Positions 1 to 57,099 of a stretch of 64,000 nt of DNA are shown one piece after another (the first letter of the stretch is position 1; each line of letters begins with the position of its first letter). The notes under the pieces are model-generated. The model had not been told where the DNA came from and did not search any database. It saw only the letters and a program-made list of their open reading frames with translations. The position numbers and the translations under genes were made by a program. Source of the stretch: Eledone cirrhosa (lineage: Eukaryota); NCBI GenBank assembly GCA_964016885.1, contig OZ024740.1:296236001-296300000 (forward strand). The letters run 5' to 3'.

Positions 1-394
1 CATTTTTTATTTGGGTGATCCATTTTTTATTTGGAGGATCCATTTTTTATTTGGGGGATCCATTTTTTATTTGGGTGATCCATTTTTTATTTGGGTGATC
101 CATTTTTTATTTGGGTGATCCATTTTTTATTTGGGTGATCCATTTTTTATTTGTGGGATCCTTTTTTTATTTGGGTGATCCATTTTTTATTTGGGTGATC
201 CATTTTTTATTTGAGTGATCCATTTTTTATTTGGGGGATCCATTTTTTATTTGGGTGATCCATTTTTATTTGGGGTATCCATTTTTTATTTGGTGGATCC
301 ATTTTTTATTTGGGTGATCCATTTTTTATTTGGGTGATCCATTTTTTATTTGAGTGATCCATTCTTTATTTGAGGGATCCATTTTTTATTTGGG

Positions 395-428
395 GGATCC
401 ATTTTTTATTTGATGGATCACCCAAATA
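395..428. other. Representative T-rich to A-rich inversion junction GGATCCATTTTTTATTTG|ATGGATC
   Basis: Seen at ~412, 1780, 2563, 3828, 4128, 5739, 6700 and elsewhere, and as the reverse complement GATCCAT|CAAAT at ~12330, 13884, 19337, 41995, 43529, 53347, 56087. Confidence 0.92.
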
Positions 429-1271
429 AAAAATGGATCCCCCAAATAAAAAGTGGATCACCCAAATAAAAAATGGATCCCCCAAATAAAAAATGGATCA
501 TCAAATAAAAAATGAATCACCCAAATAAAAAATGGATCACCCAAATAAAAAATGGATCACCCAAATAAAAAATGGATACCCCTAATAAAAAATGGATCAA
601 CCAAATAAAAAATGGATCACCCAAATAAAAAATGGATCCCCCAAATAAAAATTGGATCACCCAAATAAAAAATGGATCACCCAAATAAAAAATGGATCAC
701 CCAAATAAAAAATGGATCCCCCAAATAAAAAATGGATCACCCAAATAAAAAATGGATCACCCAAATAAAAAATGGATCACCCAAATAAAAAGTGGATCAC
801 CCAAATAAAAAATGGATCGCCCCAATAAAAAATGGATCCCCAAATAATAAATGGATCACCCAAATAAAAAATGGATCCCCCAAATAAAAAATGGATCCCC
901 CAAATAAAAAATGGATCACCCAAATAACAAATGGATCACCCAAATAAAAAATGGATCCCCCAAATAAAAAATGGATCACCCAAATAAAAAATGGATCACC
1001 CAAATAAAAAATGGATCACCCAAATAAAAAATGGATCACCCAAATAAAAAATGGATCGCCTAAATAAAAAATGGATCCCTCAAATAAAGAATAGATCACT
1101 CAAATAAAAAATGGATCACCCAAATAAAAAATGGATCCCCCAAATAAAAAATGGATCACCCAAATAAAAAATGGATCACCCCAATAAAAAATGGATCCCC
1201 CAAATAAAAAATGGATCACCCAAATAGATCACAAATAGATAATGGTTCCCCCAAATAAAAAATGGATCCGC

Positions 1272-1301
1272 CAAATAAAAAAGGGATCCATTTTTTATTT
1301 G
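1272..1301. other. Representative A-rich to T-rich inversion junction: quasi-palindrome CAAATAAAAAA-G-GGATCC-A-TTTTTTATTTG centred on GGATCC
   Basis: The arms are reverse complements with one mismatch flanking GGATCC. The same junction or its reverse complement accounts for about 38 of 45 such switches. Confidence 0.92.
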
Positions 1302-4300
1302 GGGGATCCATTTTTTATTTGGGTGATCCATTTTTTATTTGGGTGATCCATTTTTTATTTGGGGGATCCATTTTTTATTTGGGTGATCCATTTTTTATTT
1401 GGAGGATCCATTTTTTATTTGGGGGATCCATTTTTTATTTGGGTGATCCATTTTTTATTTGGGTGATCCATTTTTTATTTGGGTGATCCATTTTTTATTT
1501 GGGTGATCCATTTTTTATTTGTGGGATCCTTTTTTTATTTGGGTGATCCATTTTTTATTTGGGTGATCCATTTTTTATTTGAGTGATCCATTTTTTATTT
1601 GGGGGATCCATTTTTTATTTGGGTGATCCATTTTTATTTGGGGTATCCATTTTTTATTTGGTGGATCCATTTTTTATTTGGGTGATCCATTTTTTATTTG
1701 GGTGATCCATTTTTTATTTGAGTGATCCATTCTTTATTTGAGGGATCCATTTTTTATTTGGGGGATCCATTTTTTATTTGATGGATCACCCAAATAAAAA
1801 ATGGATCCCCCAAATAAAAAGTGGATCACCCAAATAAAAAATGGATCCCCCAAATAAAAAATGGATCATCAAATAAAAAATGAATCACCCAAATAAAAAA
1901 TGGATCACCCAAATAAAAAATGGATCACCCAAATAAAAAATGGATACCCCTAATAAAAAATGGATCAACCAAATAAAAAATGGATCACCCAAATAAAAAA
2001 TGGATCCCCCAAATAAAAATTGGATCACCCAAATAAAAAATGGATCACCCAAATAAAAAATGGATCACCCAAATAAAAAATGGATCCCCCAAATAAAAAA
2101 TGGATCACCCAAATAAAAAATGGATCACCCAAATAAAAAATGGATCACCCAAATAAAAAGTGGATCACCCAAATAAAAAATGGATCGCCCCAATAAAAAA
2201 TGGATCCCCAAATAATAAATGGATCACCCAAATAAAAAATGGATCCCCCAAATAAAAAATGGATCCCCCAAATAAAAAATGGATCACCCAAATAACAAAT
2301 GGATCACCCAAATAAAAAATGGATCCCCCAAATAAAAAATGGATCACCCAAATAAAAAATGGATCACCCAAATTTTTTATTTGGGTGATCCATTTTTTAT
2401 TTGGGGGATCCATTTTTTATTTGGGTGATCCATTTTTTATTTGGGTGATCCATTTTTTAATTGCGGGATCCATTTTTTATTTGGGTGATCCATTTTTTAT
2501 TTGAGTGATCCATTCTTTATTTGAGGGATCCATTTTTTATTTGGGGGATCCATTTTTTATTTGATGGATCACCCAAATAAAAAATGGATCAACCAAATAA
2601 AAAATTGTTCACCCAAATAAAAAATGGATCCCTTTTTTATTTAGCGGATCCATTTTTTTATTTCGGTGATCCATTTTTTATTTGGTGGATCCATTTTTAA
2701 TTTGGGGGAACCATTTTTTATTTGGGTGATCCATTTTTTATTTGGGGGATCCATTTTTTATTTGGGGGATCAATTTTTTATTTGGGTGATCCATTTTTCA
2801 TTTGGGTGATCCATTTTTTATTTGGTGATCCATTTTTTATTTGGGGGATCCATTTTTTATTTGGGTGATCGATTTTTTATTTGGGTGATCTATTTTTTAT
2901 TTGGGGTATCCATTTTTAATTTGGGTGATCAATTTTTTATTTGGGTGATCCATTTTTTATTTGGGTGATCCATTTTTTATTTGGATGATCCATTTTTTAT
3001 TTGGGGGATCCATTTTTTATTTGGGTGATCCATTTTTTATTTGGGGGATCCATTTTTTATTTGGGCGATCCATTTTTTATTTGGGGGATCCATTTTTTAT
3101 TTGGTGGATCCATTTTTTATTTGGGTGATGTAAAATAAAATAAAATAAAAAATGGATCCCCCAAATAAAAAATGGATCCCTCAAATAAAAAATGGATCAC
3201 CCAAATAAAAAATGGATCACCCAAATAAAAAATGGATCCCCCAAATACAAAATGGATCACCAAATAAAAAATGGATCACCCAAATAAAAAATGGATCCCC
3301 CAAATAAAAAATGGATCACCCAAATAAAAAATGGATCTCCCAAATACAAAATGGATCACCAAATATAAAATGGATCACCCAAATAAAAAATGGATCCTCC
3401 AAATAAAAAATGGATCACCCAAATAAAAAATGGATCACCCAAATAAAAAATGGATCGCCCAAATAAAAAATGGATCCAAAAAATAAAAATGGATCACCCA
3501 AACAAAAAATGGATCACCCAAATAAACACTGGATCCCCCAAATAAAAAATGGATTACCCAAATAAAAAATGGATCCCCCAAATAAAAAAGGGATCCATTT
3601 TTTATTTGGGTGATCCATTTTTTATTTGGGTGATCCATTTTTTATTTGGGCGATCCATTTTTTATTTGGGGGATACATTTTTTATTTGGGTGATCCATTT
3701 TTTATTTGGGTGATTCATTTTTTATTTGGGTGATCCATTTTTAATTTTTGGGATCCATTTTTTATTTGGTGGATCCATTTTTTATTTGGGTGATCCATTT
3801 TTTATTTGGGTGATCCATTTTTTATTTGATGGATCCCCAAATAGAAAATGGAACCCCCAAATAAAAAATGGATCCCCCAAATAAAAAATGGATCACCCAA
3901 ATAAAAAATGGATCCCCCAAATAAAAAATGGATCCCCCAAATAAAAAATGAATCCCTGAAATAAAAAATGGATCCCCCAAATAAAAAAGGGATGCATTTT
4001 TTATTTGGGTGATCCATTTTTTATTTGGGGGGATCCGTTTTTTATTTGGGCGATCCATTTTTTATTTGGGTGATCCATTTTTTATTTGAGGGATCCATTT
4101 TTTATTTGGGGGATCCATTTTTTATTTGATGGATCTCCCAAATAAAAAATGGATCATCCAAATAAAAAATGGATCCCCCAAATAAAAAATGGATCACCCA
4201 AATAAAAAATGGAACACCCAAATAAAAAATGGATCCCCCAAATAAAAAATGGATCCCCCAAATAAAAAATGGATCCCCAAAATAAAAAATGGATCACCCA

Positions 4301-5369
4301 AATAAAAAATGGAGCCCCCAAATAAAAAATGGATCACCCAAATTAAAACTGGTTCCCCCAAATAAAAAATGGATCACCCAAGTAAAAAATGGATCCCCCA
4401 AATAAAAAATGGATCCCCCAAATAAAAAATGGATCCCCCAAATAAAAAATGGATCACCCAAATAAAAAATGGATCCCCAAATAAAAAATGGATCCCCAAA
4501 TAAAAAATGGATCCTCCAAATAAAAAATGGATCACCCAAATAAAAAATGGATCACCCAAATAAAAAATGGATCACCCAAATAAAAAATGGATCGCCCAAA
4601 TAAAAAATGGATCCCCAAATAAAAAATGGATCACCCAAATAAAAAATGGATCCCCCAAATAAAAAATGGATCCCCCAAATAAAAAATGGATCACCCAAAT
4701 AAAAAATGGACCCCCAAATAAAAAATGGATCACCCAAATAACAAATGGAACACCCAAATAAAAAATGGATCCCCCAAATAAAAAATGGATCACCCAAATA
4801 AAAAATGGATCACCCAAATAAAAAATGGATCCTCCAAATAAAAAATGGATCACCCAAATAAAAAATGGATCCCCCAAATAAAAAATGGATCCCCCAAATA
4901 AAAAATGTATCACCCAAATAAAAACTGGATCACCCAAATAAAAACTGGATCAGCCAAATAAAAAATGGATCGCCCAAATAAAAAATGGATCCCCCAAATA
5001 AAAAATGGATCACCCAAATGAAAAATGAATCACCCAAATAAAAAATGGATCCCTCAAATAAAGAATGGATCACTCAAATAAAAAATGGATCACCCAAATA
5101 AAAAATGGATCCCCCAAATAAAAAATGGATCACCCAAATAAAAAATGGATCACCCAAATAAAAAATGGATCCCCCAAATAAAAAATGGATCACCCAAATA
5201 AAAAATGGATCCCCCAAATAAAAAAGGATCACCCAAATAAAAAATGGATCATTCAAATAAAAAATGGATCACCCAAATAAAAAATGGATCCCCCAAATAA
5301 AAAATGGATCACCCAAATAAAAAATAAATCACCCAAATAAAGAATGGATCACCCAAATAAAAAATGGAT

Positions 5370-8300
5370 CCCCCAAATAAAAAATGGATCACCCAAATAA
5401 AAAATGGATCCCTTTTTTATTTGGCGGATCCATTTTTTGGGGGGGATCCATTATCTATTTGGGTGATCCATTTTATGTTTGGGGGATCCAGTTTTTATTT
5501 GGGTGATCCATTTTTTATTTGGGGGATCCATTTTTTATTTGGGTGATCCATTTTTTATTTGGTGATCCATTTTTTATTTGGGGGATCCATTTTTATTTGG
5601 GTGATCCATTTTTTATTTGGTTGATCCATTTTTTATTAGAGGTATCCATTTTTAATTTGGGTGATCCATTTTTTATTTGTGTGATCCATTTTTTATATGA
5701 GGGATCCATTTTTTATTTGGGGGATCCATTTTTTATTTGATGGATGTCCCAAATAAAAAATGGATCACCCGAATAAAAAATGGATCCCCCAAATAAAAAA
5801 TGGATCCCCCAAATAAAAAATGGGTCCCCCAAATAAAAAATGGGTCACCCAAATAAAAAATGGATCACCCAAATAAAAAATGGATCGCCCAAATAAAAAA
5901 TGGATCCAAAAAATAAAAAATGGATCACCCAAATAAAAAATGGATCCCCCAAATAAAAAATGGATCCCCCAAATAAAAAATGGATCACCCAAATAAAAAA
6001 TGGGCCCCCCCCCAAAAAAAATGGATCACCCAAATAAAAAATGGATCACCCAAATAAAAAATGCATCCTCCAAATAAAAAATGGATCACCCAAATAAAAA
6101 ATGGATCCTCCAAATAAAAAATGGATCACCCAAATAAAAAATGGATCACCCAAATAAAAAATGGATCACCCAAATCAAAAATGGATCCCCCAAACAAAAA
6201 ATGGATCACCCAAATAAAAAATGGATCCCCCACATAAAAAATGGATCACCCAAATAAAAAATGAATCACCCAAATAAAAAATGGATCACCCAAATAAAAA
6301 ATGGATCCCCCAAATAAAAAATGGATCACCCAAATAAAAAAATGGATCACCCAAATAAAAAATGGATCCCTTTTTTATTTGGGGGATCCATTTTTTATTT
6401 GAAGGATCCATTTTTTATTTGGGTGATCCATTTTTTATTTGGGTGATCCATTTTTTATTTGGGTGATCCATTTTTTATTTGGGGGATCCATTTTTTATTT
6501 GGGGGATCCATTTTTTATTTGGGGGATCCATTTTTTATTTGGGTGATCCATTTTTTATTTGTGGGATCCATTTTATATTTGGGGGATCCATTTTTTATTT
6601 GGGGATCCATTTTTTATTTGGGTGATCCATTTTTTATTTGGGTGATCCATTTTTTATTTGAGGGATCCATTTTTTATTTGGGGGATCCATTTTTTATTTG
6701 ATGGATCTCCCAAATAAAAAATGGATCATCCAAATAAAAAATGGATCCCCCAAATAAAAAATGGATCACCCAAATAAAAAATGGAACACCCAAATAAAAA
6801 ATGGATCCCCCAAATAAAAAATGGATCCCCCAAATAAAAAATGGATCCCCGAAATAAAAAATGGATCACCCAAATAAAAAATGGAGCCCCCAAATAAAAA
6901 ATGGATCACCCAAATTAAAACTGGTTCCCCCAAATAAAAAATGGATCACCCAAGTAAAAAATGGATCCCCCAAATAAAAAATGGATCCCCCAAATAAAAA
7001 ATGGATCCTCCAAATAAAAAATGGATCACCCAAATAAAAAATGGATCCCCAAATAAAAAATGGATCCCCAAATAAAAAATGGATCCTCCAAATAAAAAAT
7101 GGATCACCCAAATAAAAAATGGATCACCCAAATAAAAAATGGATCACCCAAATAAAAAATGGATCGCCCAAATAAAAAATGGATCCCCAAATAAAAAATG
7201 GATCACCCAAATAAAAAATGGATCCCCCAAATAAAAAATGGATCCCCCAAATAAAAAATGGATCACCCAAATAAAAAATGGACCCCCAAATAAAAAATGG
7301 ATCACCCAAATAACAAATGGAACACCCAAATAAAAAATGGATCCCCCAAATAAAAAATGGATCACCCAAATAAAAAATGGATCACCCAAATAAAAAATGG
7401 ATCCTCCAAATAAAAAATGGATCACCCAAATAAAAAATGTATCACCCAAATAAAAACTGGATCACCCAAATAAAAACTGGATCAGCCAAATAAAAAATGG
7501 ATCGCCCAAATAAAAAATGGATCCCCCAAATAAAAAATGGATCACCCAAATGAAAAATGAATCACCCAAATAAAAAATGGATCCCTCAAATAAAGAATGG
7601 ATCACTCAAATAAAAAATGGATCACCCAAATAAAAAATGGATCCCCCAAATAAAAAATGGATCACCCAAATAAAAAATGGATCACCCAAATAAAAAATGG
7701 ATCCCCCAAATAAAAAATGGATCACCCAAATAAAAAATGGATCCCCCAAATAAAAAAGGATCACCCAAATAAAAAATGGATCATTCAAATAAAAAATGGA
7801 TCACCCAAATAAAAAATGGATCCCCCAAATAAAAAATGGATCACCCAAATAAAAAATAAATCACCCAAATAAAAAATGGATCACCCAAATAAAAAATTGA
7901 TCCCCCAAATAAAAAATGGATCACCCAAATAAAAAATGGATCACCCAAATATAATATGGATCCCCCAAATAAAAAATGGATCCCCCAAATAAAAAATGGA
8001 TCCCCCAAATAAAAAATGGATCCCCCAAATAAAAAATGGATCACCCAAATAAAAAATGGATCCCCAAATAAAAAATGGATCCCCAAATAAAAAATGGATC
8101 CTCCAAATAAAAAATGGATCACCCAAATAAAAAATGGATCACCCAAATAAAAAATGGATCACCCAAATAAAAAATGGATCGCCCAAATAAAAAATGGATC
8201 CCCAAATAAAAAATGGATCACCCAAATAAAAAATGGATCCCCCAAATAAAAAATGGATCCCCCAAATAAAAAATGGATCACCCAAATAAAAAATGGACCC

Positions 8301-11300
8301 CCAAATAAAAAATGGATCACCCAAATAACAAATGGAACACCCAAATAAAAAATGGATCCCCCAAATAAAAAATGGATCACCCAAATAAAAAATGGATCAC
8401 CCAAATAAAAAATGGATCCTCCAAATAAAAAATGGATCACCCAAATAAAAAATGTATCACCCAAATAAAAACTGGATCACCCAAATAAAAACTGGATCAG
8501 CCAAATAAAAAATGGATCGCCCAAATAAAAAATGGATCCCCCAAATAAAAAATGGATCACCCAAATGAAAAATGAATCACCCAAATAAAAAATGGATCCC
8601 TCAAATAAAGAATGGATCACTCAAATAAAAAATGGATCACCCAAATAAAAAATGGATCACCCAAATAAAAAATAAATCACCCAAATAAAAAATGGATCAC
8701 CCAAATAACAAATTGATCCCCCAAATAAAAAATGGATCACCCAAATAAAAAATGGATCACCCAAATAAAAAATGGATCCCTTTTTTATTTGGCGGATCCA
8801 TTTTTTTGGGGGGGATCCATTATCTATTTGGGTGATCCATTTTATGTTTGGGGGATCCAGTTTTTATTTGGGTGATCCATTTTTTATTTGGGGGATCCAT
8901 TTTTTATTTGGGTGATCCATTTTTTATTTGGTGATCCATTTTTTATTTGGGGGATCCATTTTTATTTGGGTGATCCATTTTTTATTTGGTTGATCCATTT
9001 ATTATTAGAGGTATCCATTTTTAATTTGGGTGATCCATTTTTTAATTGTGTGATCCATTTTTTATATGAGGGATCCATTTTTTATTTGGGGGATCCATTT
9101 TTTATTTGATGGATGTCCCAAATAAAAAATGGATCACCCGAATAAAAAATGGATCCCCCAAATAAAAAATGGATCCCCCAAATAAAAAATGGATCCCCCA
9201 AATAAAAAATGGGTCACCCAAATAAAAAATGGATCACCCAAATAAAAAATGGATCGCCCAAATAAAAAATGGATCCAAAAAATAAAAAATGGATCACCCA
9301 AATAAAAAATGGATCCCCCAAATAAAAAATGGATCCCCCAAATAAAAAATGGATCACCCAAATAAAAAATGGGCCCCCCCCAAAAAAAAATGGATCACCC
9401 AAATAAAAAATGGATCACCCAAATAAAAAATGCATCCTCCAAATAAAAAATGGATCACCCAAATAAAAAATGGATCCTCCAAATAAAAAATGGATCACCC
9501 AAATAAAAAATGGATCACCCAAATAAAAAATGGATCACCCAAATCAAAAATGGATCCCCCAAACAAAAAATGGATCACCCAAATAAAAAATGGATCCCCC
9601 ACATAAAAAATGGATCACCCAAATAAAAAATGAATCACCCAAATAAAAAATGGATCACCCAAATAAAAAATGGATCCCCCCAAAAAAAAATGGATCACCC
9701 AAATAAAAAAATGGATCACCCAAATAAAAAATGGATCCATTTTTTATTTGGGTGATCCATTTTTTATTTGGGTGATCCATTTTTTATTTGGGTGATCCAT
9801 TTTTTATTTGGGTGATCCATTTTTTATTTGGGGGATCCATTTTTTATTTGGGGGATCCATTTTTTATTTGGGGGATCCATTTTTTATTTGGGTGATCCAT
9901 TTTTTATTTGGGTGATCCATTTTTTATTTGTGGGATCCATTTTATATTTGGGGGATCCATTTTTTATTTGGGGATCCATTTTTTATTTGGGTGATCCATT
10001 TTTTATTTGGGTGATCCATTTTTTATTTGAGGGATCCATTTTTTATTTGGGGGATCCATTTTTTATTTGATGGATCTCCCAAATAAAAAATGGATCATCC
10101 AAATAAAAAATGGATCCCCCAAATAAAAAATGGATCACCCAAATAAAAAATGGAACACCCAAATAAAAAATGGATCCCCCAAATAAAAAATGGATCCCCC
10201 AAATAAAAAATGGATCCCCAAAATAAAAAATGGATCACCCAAATAAAAAATGGAGCCCCCAAATAAAAAATGGATCACCCAAATTAAAACTGGTTCCCCC
10301 AAATAAAAAATGGATCACCCAAGTAAAAAATGGATCCCCCAAATAAAAAATGGATCCCCCAAATAAAAAATGGATCCTCCAAATAAAAAATGGATCACCC
10401 AAATAAAAAATGGATCCCCAAATAAAAAATGGATCCCCAAATAAAAAATGGATCCTCCAAATAAAAAATGGATCACCCAAATAAAAAATGGATCACCCAA
10501 ATAAAAAATGGATCACCCAAATAAAAAATGGATCGCCCAAATAAAAAATGGATCCCCAAATAAAAAATGGATCACCCAAATAAAAAATGGATCCCCCAAA
10601 TAAAAAATGGATCCCCCAAATAAAAAATGGATCACCCAAATAAAAAATGGACCCCCAAATAAAAAATGGATCACCCAAATAACAAATGGAACACCCAAAT
10701 AAAAAATGGATCCCCCAAATAAAAAATGGATCACCCAAATAAAAAATGGATCACCCAAATAAAAAATGGATCCTCCAAATAAAAAATGGATCACCCAAAT
10801 AAAAAATGTATCACCCAAATAAAAACTGGATCACCCAAATAAAAACTGGATCAGCCAAATAAAAAATGGATCGCCCAAATAAAAAATGGATCCCCCAAAT
10901 AAAAAATGGATCACCCAAATGAAAAATGAATCACCCAAATAAAAAATGGATCCCTCAAATAAAGAATGGATCACTCAAATAAAAAATGGATCACCCAAAT
11001 AAAAAATGGATCCCCCAAATAAAAAATGGATCACCCAAATAAAAAATGGATCACCCAAATAAAAAATGGATCCCCCAAATAAAAAATGGATCACCCAAAT
11101 AAAAAATGGATCCCCCAAATAAAAAAGGATCACCCAAATAAAAAATGGATCATTCAAATAAAAAATGGATCACCCAAATAAAAAATGGATCCCCCAAATA
11201 AAAAATGGATCACCCAAATAAAAAATAAATCACCCAAATAAAAAATGGATCACCCAAATAAATAATTGATCCCCCAAATAAAAAATGGATCACCCAAATA

Positions 11301-12110
11301 AAAAATGGATCACCCAAATATAATATGGATCCCCCAAATAAAAAATGGATCCCCCAAATAAAAAATGGATCCCCCAAATAAAAAATGGATCCCCCAAATA
11401 AAAAATGGATCACCCAAATAAAAAATGGATCCCCAAATAAAAAATGGATCCCCAAATAAAAAATGGATCCTCCAAATAAAAAATGGATCACCCAAATAAA
11501 AAATGGATCACCCAAATAAAAAATGGATCACCCAAATAAAAAATGGATCGCCCAAATAAAAAATGGATCCCCAAATAAAAAATGGATCACCCAAATAAAA
11601 AATGGATCCCCCAAATAAAAAATGGATCCCCCAAATAAAAAATGGATCACCCAAATAAAAAATGGACCCCCAAATAAAAAATGGATCACCCAAATAACAA
11701 ATGGAACACCCAAATAAAAAATGGATCCCCCAAATAAAAAATGGATCACCCAAATAAAAAATGGATCACCCAAATAAAAAATGGATCCTCCAAATAAAAA
11801 ATGGATCACCCAAATAAAAAATGTATCACCCAAATAAAAACTGGATCACCCAAATAAAAACTGGATCAGCCAAATAAAAAATGGATCGCCCAAATAAAAA
11901 ATGGATCCCCCAAATAAAAAATGGATCACCCAAATGAAAAATGAATCACCCAAATAAAAAATGGATCCCTCAAATAAAGAATGGATCACTCAAATAAAAA
12001 ATGGATCACCCAAATAAAAAATGGATCACCCAAATAAAAAATAAATCACCCAAATAAAAAATGGATCACCCAAATAAAAAATTGATCCCCCAAATAAAAA
12101 ATGGATCACC
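5370..12110. repeat. Tandem duplication with 3369-bp period, each unit containing an internal 1015-bp tandem duplication
   Basis: Pseudo-ORF offsets 5519/8888, 6459/9828, 6866/10235 and 8139/11508 are all 3369. Offsets 7124/8139 and 10493/11508 are 1015. Marker AATAACAAATGGAACACCC at ~7310, 8325, 10679, 11694. Confidence 0.9.
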
Positions 12111-30030: not shown

Positions 30031-30165
30031 AAAATGGATCACCCAAATAAAAAATGGATCCCTCATATAAAAAATGGATCACACAATTAAAAAATGGATC
30101 ACCCAAATTAAAAATGGATACCTCTAATAATAAATGGATCAACCAAATAAAAAATGAATCACCCA
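29791..30165. repeat. Local inverted duplication (fold-back) with arms at ~29,791-29,915 and ~30,042-30,165
   Basis: The private variant series GGTTGATCCATTTATTATTAGAGGTATCC...TTAATTGTGTGATCC...TATATGAGGG is mirrored as CCCTCATATA...GGATCACACAATTAA...GGATACCTCTAATAATAAATGGATCAACC. ORFs 29713(+) and 29927..30166(-) share the same variant peptide. Confidence 0.92.
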
Positions 30166-30189
30166 AATAAAAAATGGATCACCCAAATA

Positions 30190-45100: not shown

Positions 45101-45790
45101 GATCCATTTTTTATGTGGGGGATCCATTTTTTATTTGGGTGAACCATTTTTTATTTGGGTGATCCATTTTTTATTTGGGTGATCCATTTTTTATTTGTGG
45201 GATCCATTTTATATTTGGGGGATCCATTTTTTATTTGGGGATCCATTTTTTATTTGGGTGATCCATTTTTTATTTGGGTGATCCATTTTTTATTTGAGGG
45301 ATCCATTTTTTATTTGGGGGATCCATTTTTTATTTGATGGATCTCCCAAATAAAAAATGGATCATCCAAATATAAAATGGATCCCCCAAATAAAAAATGG
45401 ATCACCCAAATAAAAAATGGAACACCCAAATAAAAAATGGATCCCCCAAATAAAAAATGGATCCCCCAAATAAAAAATGGATCCCCAAAATAAAAAATGG
45501 ATCACCCAAATAAAAAATGGAGCCCCCAAATAAAAAATGGATCAACCAAATTAAAACTGGTTCCCCCAAATAAAAAATGGATCACCCAAGTAAAAAATGG
45601 ATCCCCCAAATAAAAAATGGATCCCCCAAATAAAAAATGGATCCCCCAAATAAAAAATGGATCACCCAAATAAAAAATGGATCCCCAAATAAAAAATGGA
45701 TCCCCAAATAAAAAATGGATCCTCCAAATAAAAAATGGATCACCCAAATAAAAAATGGATCACCCAAATAAAAAATGGATCACCCAAATA
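30190..45790. repeat. About 15.6-kb direct copy of ~450-16,140 (offset ~29.6-29.8 kb)
   Basis: Colinear pseudo-ORF pairs 797/30538, 3802/33623, 8888/38710, 12606/42251, 13633/43278, 14785/44430, 15857/45502. Differences are mostly whole-monomer indels. Confidence 0.9.
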
Positions 45791-48249
45791 AAAAATGGAT
45801 CGCCCAAATAAAAAATGGATCCCCAAATAAAAAATGGATCACCCAAATAAAAAATGGATCCCCCAAATAAAAAATGGATCCCCCAAATAAAAAATGGATC
45901 ACCCAAATAAAAAATGGACCCCCAAATAAAAAATGGATCACCCAAATAACAAATGGAACACCCAAATAAAAAATGGATCCCCCAAATAAAAAATGGATCA
46001 CCCAAATAAAAAATGGATCACCCAAATAAAAAATGGATCCTCCAAATAAAAAATGGATCACCCAAATAAAAAATGTATCACCCAAATAAAAACTGGATCA
46101 CCCAAATAAAAACTGGATCAGCCAAATAAAAAATGGATCGCCCAAATAAAAAATGGATCCCCCAAATAAAAAATGGATCACCCAAATGAAAAATGAATCA
46201 CCCAAATAAAAAATGGATCCCTCAAATAAAGAATGGATCACTCAAATAAAAAATGGATCACCCAAATAAAAAATGGATCCCCCAAATAAAAAATGGATCA
46301 CCCAAATAAAAAATGGATCACCCAAATAAAAAATGGATCCCCCAAATAAAAAATGGATCACCCAAATAAAAAATGGATCCCCCAAATAAAAAAGGATCAC
46401 CCAAATAAAAAATGGATCATTCAAATAAAAAATGGATCACCCAAATAAAAAATGGATCCCCCAAATAAAAAATGGATCTCCCAAATAAAAAATAAATCAC
46501 CCAAATAAAAAATGGATCACCCAAATAAAAAATTGATCCCCCAAATAAAAAATGGATCACCCAAATAAAAAATGGATCACCCAAATATAATATGGATCCC
46601 CCAAATAAAAAATGGATCCCCCAAATAAAAAATGGATCCCCCAAATAAAAAATGGATCCCCCAAATAAAAAATGGATCACCCAAATAAAAAATGGATCCC
46701 CAAATAAAAAATGGATCCCCAAATAAAAAATGGATCCTCCAAATAAAAAATGGATCACCCAAATAAAAAATGGATCACCCAAATAAAAAATGGATCACCC
46801 AAATAAAAAATGGATCGCCCAAATAAAAAATGGATCCCCAAATAAAAAATGGATCACCCAAATAAAAAATGGATCCCCCAAATAAAAAATGGATCCCCCA
46901 AATAAAAAATGGATCACCCAAATAAAAAATGGACCCCCAAATAAAAAATGGATCACCCAAATAACAAATGGAACACCCAAATAAAAAATGGATCCCCCAA
47001 ATAAAAAATGGATCACCCAAATAAAAAATGGATCACCCAAATAAAAAATGGATCCTCCAAATAAAAAATGGATCACCCAAATAAAAAATGTATCACCCAA
47101 ATAAAAACTGGATCACCCAAATAAAAACTGGATCAGCCAAATAAAAAATGGATCGCCCAAATAAAAAATGGATCCCCCAAATAAAAAATGGATCACCCAA
47201 ATGAAAAATGAATCACCCAAATAAAAAATGGATCCCTCAAATAAAGAATGGATCACTCAAATAAAAAATGGATCACCCAAATAAAAAATGGATCACCCAA
47301 ATAAAAAATAAATCACCCAAATAAAAAATGGATCACCCAAATAAAAAATTGATCCCCCAAATAAAAAATGGATCACCCAAATAAAAAATGGATCACCCAA
47401 ATAAAAAATGGATCCCTTTTTTATTTGGCGGATCCATTTTTTGGGGGGGGATCCATTATCTATTTGGGTGATCCATTTTATGTTTGGGGGATCCAGTTTT
47501 TATTTGGGTGATCCATTTTTTATTTGGGGGATCCATTTTTTATTTGGGTGATCCATTTTTTATTTGGTGATCCATTTTTTATTTGGGGGATCCATTTTTA
47601 TTTGGGTGATCCATTTTTTATTTGGTTGATCCATTTATTATTAGAGGTATCCATTTTTAATTTGGGTGATCCATTTTTTATTTGTGTGATCCATTTTTTA
47701 TATGAGGGATCCATTTTTTATTTGGGGGATCCATTTTTTATTTGATGGATGTCCCAAATAAAAAATGGATCACCCGAATAAAAAATGGATCCCCCAAATA
47801 AAAAATGGATCCCCCAAATAAAAAATGGATCCCCCAAATAAAAAATGGGTCACCCAAATAAAAAATGGATCACCCAAATAAAAAATGGATCGCCCAAATA
47901 AAAAATGGATCCAAAAAATAAAAAATGGATCACCCAAATAAAAAATGGATCCCCCAAATAAAAAATGGATCCCCCAAATAAAAAATGGATCACCCAAATA
48001 AAAAATGGGCCCCCCCCCCAAAAAAAATGGATCACCCAAATAAAAAATGGATCACCCAAATAAAAAATGCATCCTCCAAATAAAAAATGGATCACCCAAA
48101 TAAAAAATGGATCCTCCAAATAAAAAATGGATCACCCAAATAAAAAATGGATCACCCAAATAAAAAATGGATCACCCAAATCAAAAATGGATCCCCCAAA
48201 CAAAAAATGGATCACCCAAATAAAAAATGGATCCCCCACATAAAAAATG

Positions 48250-51200
48250 GATCACCCAAATAAAAAATGAATCACCCAAATAAAAAATGGATCACCCAAA
48301 TAAAAAATGGATCCCCCCAAAAAAAAATGGATCACCCAAATAAAAAAATGGATCACCCAAATAAAAAATGGATCCCTTTTTTATTTGGGGGATCCATTTT
48401 TTATTTGAAGGATCCATTTTTTATTTGGGTGATCCATTTTTTATTTGGGTGATCCATTTTTTATTTGGGTGATCCATTTTTTATTTGGGTGATCCATTTT
48501 TTATTTGGGGGATCCATTTTTTATTTGGGGGATCCATTTTTTATTTGGGGGATCCATTTTTTATTTGGGTGATCCATTTTTTATTTGGGTGATCCATTTT
48601 TTATTTGTGGGATCCATTTTATATTTGGGGGATCCATTTTTTATTTGGGGATCCATTTTTTATTTGGGTGATCCATTTTTTATTTGGGTGATCCATTTTT
48701 TATTTGAGGGATCCATTTTTTATTTGGGGGATCCATTTTTTATTTGATGGATCTCCCAAATAAAAAATGGATCATCCAAATAAAAAATGGATCCCCCAAA
48801 TAAAAAATGGATCACCCAAATAAAAAATGGAACACCCAAATAAAAAATGGATCCCCCAAATAAAAAATGGATCCCCCAAATAAAAATGGATCCCCAAAAT
48901 AAAAAATGGATCACCCAAATAAAAAATGGAGCCCCCAAATAAAAAATGGATCACCCAAATTAAAACTGGTTCCCCCAAATAAAAAATGGATCACCCAAGT
49001 AAAAAATGGATCCCCCAAATAAAAAATGGATCCCCCAAATAAAAAATGGATCCTCCAAATAAAAAATGCATCACCCAAATAAAAAATGGATCCCCAAATA
49101 AAAAATGGATCCCCAAATAAAAAATGGATCCTCCAAATAAAAAATGGATCACCCAAATAAAAAATGGATCACCCAAATAAAAAATGGATCACCCAAATAA
49201 AAAATGGATCGCCCAAATAAAAAATGGATCCCCAAATAAAAAATGGATCACCCAAATAAAAAATGGATCCCCCAAATAAAAAATGGATCCCCCAAATAAA
49301 AAATGGATCACCCAAATAAAAAATGGACCCCCAAATAAAAAATGGATCACCCAAATAACAAATGGAACACCCAAATAAAAAATGGATCCCCCAAATAAAA
49401 AATGGATCACCCAAATAAAAAATGGATCACCCAAATAAAAAATGGATCCTCCAAATAAAAAATGGATCACCCAAATAAAAAATGTATCACCCAAATAAAA
49501 ACTGGATCACCCAAATAAAAACTGGATCAGCCAAATAAAAAATGTATCGCCCAAATAAAAAATGGATCCCCCAAATAAAAAATGGATCACCCAAATGAAA
49601 AATGAATCACCCAAATAAAAAATGGATCCCTCAAATAAAGAATGGATCACTCAAATAAAAAATGGATCACCCAAATAAAAAATGGATCCCCCAAATAAAA
49701 AATGGATCACCCAAATAAAAAATGGATCACCCAAATAAAAAATGGATCCCCCAAATAAAAAATGGATCACCCAAATAAAAAATGGATCCCCCAAATAAAA
49801 AAGGATCACCCAAATAAAAAATGGATCATTCAAATAAAAAATGGATCACCCAAATAAAAAATGGATCCCCCAAATAAAAAATGGATCACCCAAATAAAAA
49901 ATAAATCACCCAAATAAAAAATGGATCACCCAAATAAATAATTGATCCCCCAAATAAAAAATGGATCACCCAAATAAAAAATGGATCACCCAAATATAAT
50001 ATGGATCCCCCAAATAAAAAATGGATCCCCCAAATAAAAAATGGATCCCCCAAATAAAAAATGGATCCCCCAAATAAAAAATGGATCACCCAAATAAAAA
50101 ATGGATCCCCAAATAAAAAATGGATCCCCAAATAAAAAATGGATCCTCCAAATAAAAAATGGATCACCCAAATAAAAAATGGATCACCCAAATAAAAAAT
50201 GGATCACCCAAATAAAAAATGGATCGCCCAAATAAAAAATGGATCCCCAAATAAAAAATGGATCACCCAAATAAAAAATGGATCCCCCAAATAAAAAATG
50301 GATCCCCCAAATAAAAAATGGATCACCCAAATAAAAAATGGACCCCCAAATAAAAAATGGATCACCCAAATAACAAATGGAACACCCAAATAAAAAATGG
50401 ATCCCCCAAATAAAAAATGGATCACCCAAATAAAAAATGGATCACCCAAATAAAAAATGGATCCTCCAAATAAAAAATGGATCACCCAAATAAAAAATGT
50501 ATCACCCAAATAAAAACTGGATCACCCAAATAAAAACTGGATCAGCCAAATAAAAAATGGATCGCCCAAATAAAAAATGGATCCCCCAAATAAAAAATGG
50601 ATCACCCAAATAAAAAATGAATCACCCAAATAAAAAATGGATCACCCAAATAAAAAATGGATCCCCCCCAAAAAAAATGGATCACCCAAATAAAAAAATG
50701 GATCACCCAAATAAAAAATGGATCCCTTTTTTATTTGGGGGATCCATTTTTTATTTGAAGGATCCATTTTTTATTTGGGTGATCCATTTTTTATTTGGGT
50801 GATCCATTTTTTATTTGGGTGATCCATTTTTTATTTGGGTGATCCATTTTTTATTTGGGGGATCCATTTTTTATTTGGGGGATCCATTTTTTATTTGGGG
50901 GATCCATTTTTTATTTGGGTGATCCATTTTTTATTTGGGTGATCCATTTTTTATTTGTGGGATCCATTTTATATTTGGGGGATCCATTTTTTATTTGGGG
51001 ATCCATTTTTTATTTGGGTGATCCATTTTTTATTTGGGTGATCCATTTTTTATTTGAGGGATCCATTTTTTATTTGGGGGATCCATTTTTTATTTGATGG
51101 ATCTCCCAAATAAAAAATGGATCATCCAAATAAAAAATGGATCCCCCAAATAAAAAATGGATCACCCAAATAAAAAATGGAACACCCAAATAAAAAATGG

Positions 51201-52950
51201 ATCCCCCAAATAAAAAATGGATCCCCCAAATAAAAAATGGATCCCCAAAATAAAAAATGGATCACCCAAATAAAAAATGGAGCCCCCAAATAAAAAATGG
51301 ATCACCCAAATTAAAACTGGTTCCCCCAAATAAAAAATGGATCACCCAAGTAAAAAATGGATCCCCCAAATAAAAAATGGATCCCCCAAATAAAAAATGG
51401 ATCCTCCAAATAAAAAATGCATCACCCAAATAAAAAATGGATCCCCAAATAAAAAATGGATCCCCAAATAAAAAATGGATCCTCCAAATAAAAAATGGAT
51501 CACCCAAATAAAAAATGGATCACCCAAATAAAAAATGGATCACCCAAATAAAAAATGGATCGCCCAAATAAAAAATGGATCCCCAAATAAAAAATGGATC
51601 ACCCAAATAAAAAATGGATCCCCCAAATAAAAAATGGATCCCCCAAATAAAAAATGGATCACCCAAATAAAAAATGGACCCCCAAATAAAAAATGGATCA
51701 CCCAAATAACAAATGGAACACCCAAATAAAAAATGGATCCCCCAAATAAAAAATGGATCACCCAAATAAAAAATGGATCACCCAAATAAAAAATGGATCC
51801 TCCAAATAAAAAATGGATCACCCAAATAAAAAATGTATCACCCAAATAAAAACTGGATCACCCAAATAAAAACTGGATCAGCCAAATAAAAAATGTATCG
51901 CCCAAATAAAAAATGGATCCCCCAAATAAAAAATGGATCACCCAAATGAAAAATGAATCACCCAAATAAAAAATGGATCCCTCAAATAAAGAATGGATCA
52001 CTCAAATAAAAAATGGATCACCCAAATAAAAAATGGATCCCCCAAATAAAAAATGGATCACCCAAATAAAAAATGGATCACCCAAATAAAAAATGGATCC
52101 CCCAAATAAAAAATGGATCACCCAAATAAAAAATGGATCCCCCAAATAAAAAAGGATCACCCAAATAAAAAATGGATCATTCAAATAAAAAATGGATCAC
52201 CCAAATAAAAAATGGATCCCCCAAATAAAAAATGGATCACCCAAATAAAAAATAAATCACCCAAATAAAAAATGGATCACCCAAATAAATAATTGATCCC
52301 CCAAATAAAAAATGGATCACCCAAATAAAAAATGGATCACCCAAATATAATATGGATCCCCCAAATAAAAAATGGATCCCCCAAATAAAAAATGGATCCC
52401 CCAAATAAAAAATGGATCCCCCAAATAAAAAATGGATCACCCAAATAAAAAATGGATCCCCAAATAAAAAATGGATCCCCAAATAAAAAATGGATCCTCC
52501 AAATAAAAAATGGATCACCCAAATAAAAAATGGATCACCCAAATAAAAAATGGATCACCCAAATAAAAAATGGATCGCCCAAATAAAAAATGGATCCCCA
52601 AATAAAAAATGGATCACCCAAATAAAAAATGGATCCCCCAAATAAAAAATGGATCCCCCAAATAAAAAATGGATCACCCAAATAAAAAATGGACCCCCAA
52701 ATAAAAAATGGATCACCCAAATAACAAATGGAACACCCAAATAAAAAATGGATCCCCCAAATAAAAAATGGATCACCCAAATAAAAAATGGATCACCCAA
52801 ATAAAAAATGGATCCTCCAAATAAAAAATGGATCACCCAAATAAAAAATGTATCACCCAAATAAAAACTGGATCACCCAAATAAAAACTGGATCAGCCAA
52901 ATAAAAAATGGATCGCCCAAATAAAAAATGGATCCCCCAAATAAAAAATG
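48250..52950. repeat. Tandem duplication with ~2350-bp period
   Basis: Offsets 48505/50855, 48911/51262, 50184/52535. Private variants ATGCATCACCC (~49066/51417) and ATGTATCGCC (~49542/51893) are shared by these two copies. Confidence 0.88.
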
Positions 52951-55900
52951 GATCACCCAAATGAAAAATGAATCACCCAAATAAAAAATGGATCCCTCAA
53001 ATAAAGAATGGATCACTCAAATAAAAAATGGATCACCCAAATAAAAAATGGATCACCCAAATAAAAAATAAATCACCCAAATAAAAAATGGATCACCCAA
53101 ATAAAAAATTGATCCCCCAAATAAAAAATGGATCACCCAAATAAAAAATGGATCACCCAAATATAATATGGATCCCCCAAATAAAAAATGGATCCCCCAA
53201 ATAAAAAATTGATCACCCAAATAAAAAATGGATCCCCCAAATAAAAAAGGGATCCATTTTTTATTTGGGTGATCCATTTTTTATTTGGGTGATCCATTCT
53301 TTATTTGGGGGATCAATTTTTTATTTGGGTGATCCATTTTTTATTTGGGAGATCCATCAAATAAAAAATGGATTCCCCAAATAAAAAATGGATCCCTCAA
53401 ATAAAAAATGGATCACCCAAATAAAAAATGGATCACCCAAATTAAAAATGGATACCCCTAATAAAAAATGGATCAACCAAATAAAAAATGGATCACCCAA
53501 ATAAAAAATGGATCACCCAAATAAAAAATGGATCCCCCAAATAAAAAATGGATCACCCAAATAAAAAATGGATCAGCCAAATAAAAAATGTATCCCCCAA
53601 ATAAAAAATGGATCACCCAAATAAAAAATGGATCACCTAAATAAAAAATGGATCACCCAAATGGAAAATGGATCACCCCCCAAAAAATGGACCGCCAAAT
53701 AAAAAATGGATCCCCCAAATAAAAGATGGATCACCCAAATAAAAAATGGATCCCCCAAATAAAAAATGGATCCCCCAAATAAAAAATGGATCACCCAAAT
53801 AAAAAATGGATCACCCAAATATAAAATGGATCCCCCAAATAAAAAATGGATCCCCCAAATAAAAAATGGATGCCCCAAATAAAAAATGGATCCACCAAAT
53901 AAAAAATGGATCCCCCAAATAAAAAATGGATCGCCCAAATAAAAAATGGATCCCCCAAATAAAAAATGGATCACCCAAATAAAAAATGGATCCCCCAAAT
54001 AAAAAATGGATCACCCAAATAAAAAATGGATCACCCAAATAAAAAATGGATCACCCAAATAAAAAATGGATCACCCAAATTAAAAATGGATACCCCAAAT
54101 AAAAAATAGATCACCCAAATAAAAAATCGATCACCCAAATAAAAAATGGATCCCCCAAATAAAAAATGGATCACCAAATAAAAAATGGATCACCCAAATA
54201 AAAAATGGATCACCCAAATAAAAAATTGATCCCCCAAATAAAAAATGGATCCCCCAAATAAAAAATGGATCACCCAAATAAAAAATGGATCGCCCAAATA
54301 AAAAATGGATCCCCAAATAAAAAATGGATCACCCAAATAAAAAATGGATCCCCCAAATAAAAAATGGATCCCCCAAATAAAAAATGGATCACCCAAATAA
54401 AAAATGGACCCCCAAATAAAAAATGGATCACCCAAATAACAAATGGAACACCCAAATAAAAAATGGATCCCCCAAATAAAAAATGGATCACCCAAATAAA
54501 AAATGGATCACCCAAATAAAAAATGGATCCTCCAAATAAAAAATGGATCACCCAAATAAAAAATGTATCACCCAAATAAAAACTGGATCACCCAAATAAA
54601 AACTGGATCAGCCAAATAAAAAATGGATCGCCCAAATAAAAAATGGATCCCCCAAATAAAAAATGGATCACCCAAATGAAAAATGAATCACCCAAATAAA
54701 AAATGGATCCCTCAAATAAAGAATGGATCACTCAAATAAAAAATGGATCACCCAAATAAAAAATGGATCCCCCAAATAAAAAATGGATCACCCAAATAAA
54801 AAATGGATCACCCAAATAAAAAATGGATCCCCCAAATAAAAAATGGATCACCCAAATAAAAAATGGATCCCCCAAATAAAAAAGGATCACCCAAATAAAA
54901 AATGGATCATTCAAATAAAAAATGGATCACCCAAATAAAAAATGGATCCCCCAAATAAAAAATGGATCACCCAAATAAAAAATAAATCACCCAAATAAAA
55001 AATGGATCACCCAAATAAAAAATTGATCCCCCAAATAAAAAATGGATCACCCAAATAAAAAATGGATCACCCAAATATAATATGGATCCCCCAAATAAAA
55101 AATGGATCCCCCAAATAAAAAATGGATCCCCCAAATAAAAAATGGATCCCCCAAATAAAAAATGGATCACCCAAATAAAAAATGGATCCCCAAATAAAAA
55201 ATGGATCCCCAAATAAAAAATGGATCCTCCAAATAAAAAATGGATCACCCAAATAAAAAATGGATCACCCAAATAAAAAATGGATCACCCAAATAAAAAA
55301 TGGATCGCCCAAATAAAAAATGGATCCCCAAATAAAAAATGGATCACCCAAATAAAAAATGGATCCCCCAAATAAAAAATGGATCCCCCAAATAAAAAAT
55401 GGATCACCCAAATAAAAAATGGACCCCCAAATAAAAAATGGATCACCCAAATAACAAATGGAACACCCAAATAAAAAATGGATCCCCCAAATAAAAAATG
55501 GATCACCCAAATAAAAAATGGATCACCCAAATAAAAAATGGATCCTCCAAATAAAAAATGGATCACCCAAATAAAAAATGTATCACCCAAATAAAAACTG
55601 GATCACCCAAATAAAAACTGGATCAGCCAAATAAAAAATGGATCGCCCAAATAAAAAATGGATCCCCCAAATAAAAAATGGATCACCCAAATGAAAAATG
55701 AATCACCCAAATAAAAAATGGATCCCTCAAATAAAGAATGGATCACTCAAATAAAAAATGGATCACCCAAATAAAAAATGGATCACCCAAATAAAAAATA
55801 AATCACCCAAATAAAAAATGGATCACCCAAATAAAAAATTGATCCCCCAAATAAAAAATGGATCACCCAAATAAAAAATGGATCACCCAAATATAATATG

Positions 55901-57010
55901 GATCCCCCAAATAAAAAATGGATCCCCCAAATAAAAAATTGATCACCCAAATAAAAAATGGATCCCCCAAATAAAAAAGGGATCCATTTTTTATTTGGGT
56001 GATCCATTTTTTATTTGGGTGATCCATTCTTTATTTGGGGGATCAATTTTTTATTTGGGTGATCCATTTTTTATTTGGGAGATCCATCAAATAAAAAATG
56101 GATTCCCCAAATAAAAAATGGATCCCTCAAATAAAAAATGGATCACCCAAATAAAAAATGGATCACCCAAATTAAAAATGGATACCCCTAATAAAAAATG
56201 GATCAACCAAATAAAAAATGGATCACCCAAATAAAAAATGGATCACCCAAATAAAAAATGGATCCCCCAAATAAAAAATGGATCACCCAAATAAAAAATG
56301 GATCAGCCAAATAAAAAATGTATCCCCCAAATAAAAAATGGATCACCCAAATAAAAAATGGATCACCTAAATAAAAAATGGATCACCCAAATGGAAAATG
56401 GATCACCCCCCAAAAAATGGACCGCCAAATAAAAAATGGATCCCCCAAATAAAAGATGGATCACCCAAATAAAAAATGGATCCCCCAAATAAAAAATGGA
56501 TCCCCCAAATAAAAAATGGATCACCCAAATAAAAAATGGATCACCCAAATATAAAATGGATCCCCCAAATAAAAAATGGATCCCCCAAATAAAAAATGGA
56601 TGCCCCAAATAAAAAATGGATCCACCAAATAAAAAATGGATCCCCCAAATAAAAAATGGATCGCCCAAATAAAAAATGGATCCCCCAAATAAAAAATGGA
56701 TCACCCAAATAAAAAATGGATCCCCCAAATAAAAAATGGATCACCCAAATAAAAAATGGATCACCCAAATAAAAAATGGATCACCCAAATAAAAAATGGA
56801 TCACCCAAATTAAAAATGGATACCCCAAATAAAAAATAGATCACCCAAATAAAAAATCGATCACCCAAATAAAAAATGGATCCCCCAAATAAAAAATGGA
56901 TCACCAAATAAAAAATGGATCACCCAAATAAAAAATGGATCACCCAAATAAAAAATTGATCCCCCAAATAAAAAATGGATCCCCCAAATAAAAAATGGAT
57001 CACCCAAATA
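51540..57010. repeat. Tandem duplication with 2730-bp period
   Basis: Offsets 52002/54732, 53053/55783 and 53633/56363 are all 2730. The internal breakpoint is near 54,270. Confidence 0.88.
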
Positions 57011-57099
57011 AAAAATGGATCCCCCAAATTAAAAATGGATCCACCAAATAAAAAATGGATCACCGAAATAAAAAATGGATCCGCTAAATAAAAAAGGGA

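What the first reader, a model, noticed from the sequence alone, without database searches (positions are those of the whole stretch)
1..57099. Satellite with about 90 strand inversions in 57 kb, roughly one every 0.6 kb
Seen: the 20-mer alternates orientation about 90 times, so the region is a chain of imperfect palindromes with arms of hundreds of bp. Established: satellite arrays are typically head-to-tail with infrequent inversions, and long closely spaced inverted repeats form hairpins or cruciforms and are unstable. Inference: here the inversions are part of the amplified unit and are maintained, giving a fold-back-competent satellite. It could extrude cruciforms, or yield long hairpin dsRNA from one transcript as a possible siRNA/heterochromatin trigger. 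This is the best candidate for an undescribed system in the window, and it is structural rather than protein-coding.
Basis: partly seen in the sequence, partly recalled or inferred. Interest (0 to 1): 0.75.

Follow-up and report, generated by a model that had tools for sequence, protein, structure and literature searches.

The report
Satellite crowded with copied inversions
A 20-letter DNA repeat reverses direction 90 times in 57 kb, but 84 of the 90 turns are copies of just two turning points, likely left by one old tiny inversion and then multiplied by ordinary duplication, so this is likely a record of repeat turnover rather than a purpose-built hairpin device.

Summary
Confirmed: a 20-bp satellite switches strand 90 times in window 413-57,096. 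84 of the 90 switches belong to two junction families, J1 and J2; both pivot on the monomer's own GATC and keep the 20-bp register. Across three full C1 arrays and 20 other samples, 996 of 1,029 switches are J1/J2. Facing arms are not mirror copies (0.914 vs 0.919 for random monomers); the junctions sit in multi-kb direct duplicates 0.1-0.2% apart. J2 occurs in raw reads of three samples from a second study. A young 2.8-kb inverted duplication 190 kb downstream enters and leaves through older inverted islands, so old inversions likely seed new ones. Against function: 13 of 13 samples of a ~1.1-Mb C5 array have no switch, and junction cores are no more conserved than their flanks. Hairpins are predicted; no RNA data were available. 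Closest known: Tribolium macro-dyad symmetries; this is a denser variant. The scan noted this before at the paralogous array 16.6 Mb away.

The parts
1..64000 (.). 20-bp satellite array, monomer GATCCATTTTTTATTTGGG(T/G), with a palindromic GATC/GGATCC core; no ORF of 100 aa or more from ATG
413..57096 (.). Mixed-orientation zone with 90 strand switches; continues upstream of the window
4119..4148 (+). Example of J1 (T-to-A switch): TTTG-ATGGATCnCC-CAAA, centred on GATC with a 10-nt interrupted centre; 35 copies in this orientation and 7 reversed (e.g. 12,331; 13,885)
6352..6381 (+). Example of J2 (A-to-T switch): A6-TGGATCCC-T6, centred on GGATCC with one mismatch; J2 family 42 copies (20 this way, 18 reversed, 2 perfect-centred at 9,733 and 39,556, 2 variants)
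23057..23215 (.). J4: the only long near-perfect palindrome (77-bp exact arms, 5-nt spacer); identical copy at about 32,040-32,196
2300..2440 (.). Copy of the J4 site lacking 60 bp across the palindrome centre; a fourth copy 5 kb upstream of the window (L010:4925) lacks 188 bp
3120..3145 (+). J3: rare off-register T-to-A junction; 3 copies (3,133; 23,953; 32,934)
2372..15691 (+). 13.3-kb block of 22 arms duplicated head-to-tail at 32,120-45,336 (0.13% substitutions plus whole-monomer indels); its first 6.4 kb also at 23,139-29,605
57096..64000 (+). Start of the T-strand domain; unidirectional here, with 40-80-bp inverted islands from about 5 kb past the window's end

Best explanation
This is a subfamily of an ordinary 20-bp satellite in which two strand-switch junctions, likely born in one small in-register inversion at the monomer's own GGATCC, were copied hundreds of times as likely passengers of ordinary direct duplication. 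Steps: (1) Founding (inferred): two template switches or a break-and-join at GGATCC cores a few monomers apart made J1 and J2, which are reciprocal to within one base and keep the 20-bp register. (2) Amplification (shown): blocks of 1-13 kb carrying the junctions were duplicated head-to-tail and gained or lost whole monomers. (3) Self-seeding (structure shown at one site outside the window, mechanism inferred): once both orientations lie close together, a strand can cross into an opposite-facing monomer by homology, producing new inverted blocks and reversed junction copies without a new junction sequence. (4) Filtering (inferred, weak): interrupted centres and 8% arm divergence likely make J1/J2 tolerable, whereas a long perfect centre is unstable. 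No function is needed to explain the pattern.
For: 84 of 90 window junctions and 996 of 1,029 in three C1 arrays plus 20 C5/C195 samples are J1 or J2 family (family sums are mine from the table). GATC spacing across junctions is 0 mod 20 in 77 of 90, 19 in 7, and off-register only at the 6 J3/J4 junctions. Exact direct repeats of 500 bp or more cover 88% of 1-57,095. Eight duplicate pairs differ by 0-0.21% substitutions, with indels that include 20, 39, 119 and 180 bp. Facing arms are no more alike than random monomers. The same two junctions occur at 279.5-279.7 Mb, at 295.3 Mb, on C5 (diverged) and on C195. At C1:296,491,7xx-296,497,5xx an inverted copy with exact stretches of 1,375 and 1,336 bp ends on the right in the tail of an old island (that tail occurs 15 times in the array). 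On the left it starts through a J1 carrying a rare marker shared with the island that ends the same block. Junction cores vary like their arms in distinct haplotypes: J1 1.7% vs 1.6%, J2 4.2% vs 3.5%. The three C1 arrays hold 6,998 of 23,953 exact dimers but 364 of 390 J1, 148 of 156 J2 and 106 of 107 perfect-J2 matches. 13 of 13 10-kb samples over C5:64.50-65.62 Mb have no switch although the monomer keeps GATC. J4, with 77-bp exact arms, shows three different centres in four copies.
Against: The founding event is not observed; one versus two founders cannot be separated. J2 could also be a plain crossover at GATC with a monomer variant (GATCCC...) that is common in the unidirectional C5 array. 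Perfect-centred J2 is frequent (187 of 487 A-to-T junctions in the three C1 arrays; 107 exact sites genome-wide), so perfect centres are not simply purged. 164 of those 187 border islands of 100 bp or less, which fits filtering but equally fits shared descent. A near-perfect T-to-A crossover exists in 2 copies at 295.34 Mb although the exact pattern has 0 matches. The direction of change at J4 (deletion versus expansion) is not polarised. About 33 junctions of some six other types show that new junctions do arise. No recent mirror duplication lies inside the window itself. Equal core and arm variation would not exclude selection on orientation alone.
Confidence: 0.8

Rival explanations
1. The junction-rich arrays are kept by selection because they fold back: hairpin RNA feeding small-RNA silencing, or hairpin/cruciform DNA organising (peri)centromeric chromatin.
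For: All eight 300-nt junction-centred sequences tested are predicted to fold 85-95% paired (DNA -124 to -158 kcal/mol, 2-4 perfect runs of 19 bp or more). Four unidirectional controls give -14 to -21 with no such run. 61% of 21-mers in 1-57,095 have an exact reverse complement within 2 kb, against 0% in 59,100-64,000. Authors propose such roles for Tribolium and Chionographis arrays (passages).
Against: Fold-back potential follows automatically from any inversion in a homogeneous satellite. There is no extra conservation at the loops, arm lengths are unconstrained, switch density varies from 0 to 26 per 10 kb, and the bulk of the family shows no switch where sampled. The Tribolium papers present function as a hypothesis.
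Confidence: 0.09
2. J1 and J2 are recurrent hotspots: the GGATCC core, or an enzyme acting on it, produces the same junctions independently again and again.
For: 84 of 90 switches pivot on GATC. A 67-kb sister satellite next to the array, whose monomer lacks GATC, has 0 switches. Perfect-centred J2 and the 2 near-perfect T-to-A junctions could be fresh crossovers at the core.
Against: J1 carries a fixed, asymmetric 3-base offset that a crossover inside the core would not give (exact perfect form 0 vs J1 390). Junction flanks fall into a few shared haplotypes. The GATC-bearing C5 array has no switch in 130 kb sampled. The sister array is one lineage, so its zero is a single observation.
Confidence: 0.07
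3. The density or order of switches is an assembly or library artefact (fold-back chimeras, mis-joined or duplicated haplotypes).
For: Long-range order was not checked in long reads. The arrays at 295.3 Mb and 296.15-296.24 Mb are close paralogs (exact matches up to 1,552 bp), each ending at a 200-N gap.
Against: Fold-back chimeras would give mirror-identical arms, which are not seen. Duplicates differ by distinct substitutions. J2 is crossed by 6 of 22, 4 of 11 and 3 of 13 laid reads in three samples of a second study. J1-crossing contigs in run X1 have depth up to about 1,100. There is no N in the window.
Confidence: 0.04

Closest known systems
Macro-dyad symmetries of Tribolium madens TmSat1/TmSat2 (PMC13081366) and T. 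freemani TfSat01/TfSat03 (PMC12581902); passages read
   Same: Inverted subarrays of one satellite; a few conserved inversion-site types in many copies at several loci; no foreign sequence at the turn; unequal arms; a cassette with a second satellite; function only hypothesised.
   Different: There, arrays mostly have two subarrays of several to tens of kb, and monomers of roughly 100 bp or more (sizes partly recalled) with truncated or degenerate monomers at the turn, in putative (peri)centromeres of all or most chromosomes. Here the monomer is 20 bp, there are hundreds of switches per array at 0.6-0.9 kb spacing, turns are in register on the monomer's own palindrome, and most of the family is unidirectional where sampled. 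The T. madens paper states such symmetries were documented only in Tribolium.
Chio1/Chio2 (23 and 28 bp) of Chionographis japonica (PMC10264360, passages; PMC12722358, passages)
   Same: Very short monomer with internal dyads; arrays are mixtures of forward and reverse blocks ('frequently alternating orientation').
   Different: Chio is CENH3-bound, about 16-17% of the genome and on all chromosomes; the passages read give no junction sequences or spacing. The present family is about 2 Mb (my estimate, under 0.1% of the assembly), and its chromatin is unknown.
Human HSat3B5 (chr9) and beta-satellite arrays (bioRxiv 10.1101/2021.07.12.452052, passages)
   Same: Satellite arrays with over 200 inversion breakpoints.
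   Different: Those arrays are multi-megabase (recalled), so density is far lower than the roughly 1,600 switches per Mb in this window.
Template-switch inverted duplications (ODIRA, PMC10766183: search listing only; inverted triplication models recalled)
   Same: An inverted copy flanked by direct repeats whose ends lie in short inverted homologies, as at C1:296.49 Mb.
   Different: Here the inverted homologies are satellite monomers themselves, so the ends leave no new junction; the pathway was not tested.

Membership tests
Macro-dyad satellite arrays (Tribolium type) | One satellite in inverted subarrays with no foreign sequence at the turn | tested here: met
Macro-dyad satellite arrays (Tribolium type) | Few conserved inversion-site types in many copies at several loci | tested here: met
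   996 of 1,029 in two families, on C1, C5 and C195
Macro-dyad satellite arrays (Tribolium type) | Mostly two subarrays per array, arms of several to tens of kb | tested here: not met
   91 blocks in 64 kb, medians 329 and 710 bp
Macro-dyad satellite arrays (Tribolium type) | Major satellite of putative (peri)centromeres on most chromosomes | tested here: inconclusive
   Seen on C1, C5 and C195 only (one search lists 68 marker hits); neighbours are other satellites; centromere position unknown
Fold-back inverted duplication / true palindrome | Arms are mirror copies, more alike than background | tested here: not met
   0.914 vs 0.919 in the window; met only at J4 (77 bp) and, outside the window, at C1:296.49 Mb and 279.67 Mb
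Hairpin-RNA (endo-siRNA) locus | Transcript crossing the inversion, and phased small RNAs from it | not testable with these tools
   No RNA run was available for laying
Hairpin-RNA (endo-siRNA) locus | Long duplex predicted on fold-back | tested here: met
   8 of 8 junctions vs 0 of 4 controls
Centromeric satellite | CENP-A binding | not testable with these tools
   No ChIP data
Foldback transposon / MITE array | Discrete element of fixed structure with terminal inverted repeats and target-site duplications | tested here: not met
   Blocks vary from 69 to 2,621 bp, with no unique termini or non-satellite sequence in the window

The most novel reading that the evidence does not exclude
A self-seeding inversion ratchet has turned part of one satellite family into a lattice of hundreds of fold-back sites per array, and the host now uses these arrays as a hairpin-RNA or DNA-hairpin platform for heterochromatin, while the unidirectional C5 array of the same monomer cannot serve this role. 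That would give a natural same-sequence, different-architecture test of whether satellite orientation matters.
Probability: 0.1. Interest if true: 0.75.

Novelty: new variant of a known kind. Interest (0 to 1): 0.4.

Why it matters
It extends conserved, amplified satellite inversion sites beyond Tribolium, at roughly ten times finer spacing. It also offers a neutral explanation for them: identical junctions can reflect descent, and old inverted islands can seed new inversions without a new junction. Conserved inversion sites have been read as hints of function, so this is a useful caution. The genome also holds built-in controls: the same monomer as junction-rich arrays (C1), as a roughly 1.1-Mb array without switches where sampled (C5), and as a GATC-less sister array. 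These allow a direct test of whether orientation changes transcription, small RNAs, fragility or chromatin. Inverted repeats of similar identity and spacer are fragile in yeast (PMC10164571, passages), so their persistence at this density is worth measuring.

Tried and rejected
Mirror-duplication origin of the window's arms: rejected. The token search found only one older inverted homology, 12,862-13,344 against 23,447-23,930 and its copy, 19 of 23 units. Ligation chimera at GATC: rejected, because the junctions carry fixed offsets and variants and recur inside duplicated blocks. Coding potential: no ORF of 100 aa or more. rDNA or structured-RNA context: no Rfam match in 10 flanking loci, 100 kb. 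Expression: no RNA holder listed; this says nothing about transcription. The first junction-conservation test double-counted reversed junctions and was discarded; one search replaces it. Strict purge of perfect centres: not upheld. The GATC core as sufficient cause: not upheld. Literature: nine searches. The 19-letter monomer stretch had 0 hits in main texts, and no cephalopod satellite paper describing this family was listed. Supplements, Dfam, Repbase and nt were not searched, so a prior description there is not excluded. PMC7004042 (passages) gave nothing on dense switches. PMC8091179 (passages) reports inversions but in a LINE/SSR mosaic. PMC13652916 (abstract) describes a different, 200-kb-scale design. 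The 'near' look-up of earlier findings returned nothing.
Full report
OBSERVATION. The window is one 20-bp satellite, GATCCATTTTTTATTTGGG(T/G) on what I call the T strand. A two-strand decomposition finds 90 switches between 413 and 57,096 for every penalty tried, and a k-mer method agrees. T blocks have median 329 bp and A blocks 710 bp. The window is G000:C1:296,236,001-296,300,000 in a 3.0-Gb assembly. The host is probably an octopod cephalopod. That rests on my recalled likeness of a SINE-like flank sequence and on an earlier scan note, not on a test.

JUNCTIONS. Of 45 T-to-A switches, 42 are one junction, J1 (35 one way, 7 reverse-complemented), and 3 are J3. Of 45 A-to-T switches, 42 are the J2 family and 3 are J4. 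J1 and J2 both pivot on the monomer's GATC, and GATC spacing across the switch is 0 mod 20 in 77 of 90, 19 in 7, and off-register only at J3/J4. By inspection, J1 and J2 are the two ends of a single in-register inversion to within one base (inference). I extended the catalogue to the three C1 arrays I fetched (279.46-279.71, 295.27-295.38 and 296.14-296.69 Mb; the start of the 295 array was not fetched) and 20 samples from C5 and C195. Of 1,029 switches, 520 of 539 T-to-A are J1 family and 476 of 490 A-to-T are J2 family, counting 1-bp indel and point variants (sums mine). The other 33 fall into some six rare types.

HOW THEY MULTIPLIED. Facing arms are no more alike than random monomers (0.914 vs 0.919), and the longest exact inverted match in the window is 158 bp. 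Exact direct matches reach 2,529 bp, and those of 500 bp or more cover 88% of 1-57,095. Eight duplicate pairs of 1-7 kb differ by 0-0.21% substitutions plus indels, many of whole monomers. The switches are therefore copies carried inside young direct duplications, and the opposite-facing arms are older.

SELF-SEEDING. Downstream of 57,096 the array is T-strand with 40-80-bp inverted islands bounded by J1 and a perfect-centred J2. At C1:296,491,7xx-296,497,5xx a block of these islands has been copied backwards, with exact stretches of 1,375 and 1,336 bp. Its right end runs into the tail of an old island, a sequence present 15 times in the array. Its left end starts through a J1 carrying a rare marker shared with the island that ends the same block. 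No new junction was made. A similar young mirror copy (2,238 bp exact) lies at 279.67 Mb; I did not dissect its ends. The inference is that opposite-facing monomers provide homology for template switching or recombination, which also explains why J1 and J2 occur in both orientations. Earlier scan notes proposed this for the paralogous array and for another satellite; I tested it here at one site.

REAL OR ARTEFACT. On a 50-base J2 stretch, 6 of 22, 4 of 11 and 3 of 13 laid reads from three RAD samples of a second study run across the junction, in both directions. On a 70-base J1 stretch, depth right of the junction is about 32, 20 and 19 against 156, 116 and 102 on the left. Some of this could be ordinary reverse-strand reads, and 17 loose-end rows were not shown. 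Contigs of run X1 cross J1 (one exact 42-mer at depth 1,092). Limits: short, probably amplified reads; no contig has 31 letters on both sides; X1 may be the assembly's own sample; RAD reads may come from the paralogous cassette zones. The junction types are real in other individuals; the window's long-range order is unverified.

FUNCTION. Eight junction-centred 300-mers are predicted to fold into long hairpins as DNA or RNA, and four unidirectional controls do not. This follows from any inversion in a 92%-homogeneous repeat. Against maintenance: junction cores vary as much as adjacent arms (J1 22/1,312 vs 83/5,084 sites; J2 51/1,218 vs 181/5,220), and switch density runs from 0 to 26 per 10 kb. 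The three C1 arrays hold 29% of exact dimers (6,998 of 23,953) but 364 of 390 J1 matches. The rest lies mainly on C5 and C195. There, 13 of 13 samples over C5:64.50-65.62 Mb had no switch; among the other 7 samples three had 2 switches each, three had none, and one was a different repeat. An unsampled switch must lie between 64.39 and 64.50 Mb. An adjoining 67-kb sister satellite without GATC has none, but the C5 array shows that GATC alone is not enough.

STABILITY. In yeast, spacer length, arm divergence and a mismatch near the centre reduce the fragility of inverted repeats (PMC10164571, passages). J1 and J2 have interrupted 10- and 8-nt centres and short exact arms (medians 16 and 12 bp). 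The one long near-perfect palindrome, J4, has three different centres in four copies, two of them shorter by 60 and 188 bp. Against a simple purge: perfect-centred J2 has 107 exact sites, though 164 of 187 border islands of 100 bp or less, and two near-perfect T-to-A junctions exist. These associations are confounded by shared descent.

COMPARISON. It works like the macro-dyad satellite arrays of Tribolium, with few conserved inversion sites in many copies (PMC13081366, PMC12581902; passages). It fails their two-arm, multi-kb pattern, so I file it as a variant, not a member. Mixed-orientation arrays of 23/28-bp monomers are known from Chionographis (PMC10264360, PMC12722358; passages), and human arrays with over 200 breakpoints from 10.1101/2021.07.12.452052 (passages). 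The monomer was not found in the searched main texts (related searches). I read no supplements; satellite consensus tables there could hold it.

VERDICT. The feature is real, unusually dense and well explained by clonal amplification of two junctions plus self-seeding (0.8). Function is untested and unlikely to be needed (0.09). The scan had already noted the same family and reading at the paralogous array. Interest 0.4.

Noticed in passing
L002:8225-10000 and L003-L008 (C1:296.154-296.206 Mb); also L036-L038, L059, L086-L092 (295.27-295.37 Mb): Composite cassette of roughly 1.8-4 kb: a 22-bp repeat, about 5 copies of a 15-bp repeat, then a fixed 102-bp T block, J1 and further blocks of the 20-mer; 16 and 21 cassette starts. 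Resembles the two-satellite cassettes of Tribolium.
   Followed up: partly
L074-L081 (C1:296,571,8xx-296,638,850): 67-kb, more diverged and GC-richer sister satellite (commonest unit differs from the 20-mer at 3 positions and lacks GATC), joined in the same orientation, with no strand switch. C5:64.35-64.39 Mb (L101-L104) looks like a mixture of both types by GC and GATC count.
   Followed up: partly
L057:1-10000 (C1:279.700 Mb): The paralogous array ends in a 196-bp satellite, and the join falls on a GATC shared by both repeats. By monomer length it is a candidate centromeric repeat (guess).
   Followed up: no
L021-L022 (C1:279.46-279.476 Mb): A 19-bp satellite borders the left end of the paralogous array.
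   Followed up: no
C1:295.27-295.37 Mb versus 296.154-296.236 Mb: Close direct paralogs (exact matches up to 1,552 bp), each ending at a 200-N gap: a real duplication or two haplotypes placed in tandem.
   Followed up: partly
C1:279.68-279.70 Mb versus 296.30-296.57 Mb: The right end of the 279-Mb array is an inverted paralog of the island domain downstream of the window (exact matches up to 1,239 bp), 16.6 Mb apart: a possible trace of a large inversion or long-range conversion.
   Followed up: partly
window 1222-1250 and copies: Two shortened, degenerate monomers (13-bp GATC spacing) just before J2, a marker of one duplicated module.
   Followed up: no
window junctions J1 and J2: The A6/T6 tracts are 20 bp apart within blocks but 26 bp apart across J1 and 14 bp across J2, so any A-tract curvature would change phase by about half a turn at each switch (inference, not modelled).
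   Followed up: no
L081:862-9668 (C1:296.64-296.65 Mb): ORF fragments that look, by recalled motifs, like LINE reverse transcriptase, endonuclease and a GIY-YIG domain, right after the sister satellite; not scanned against Pfam.
   Followed up: no
L118 (C5:65.65 Mb): An AT-rich short tandem repeat of about 10 bp (GC 0.19) follows the C5 array.
   Followed up: no
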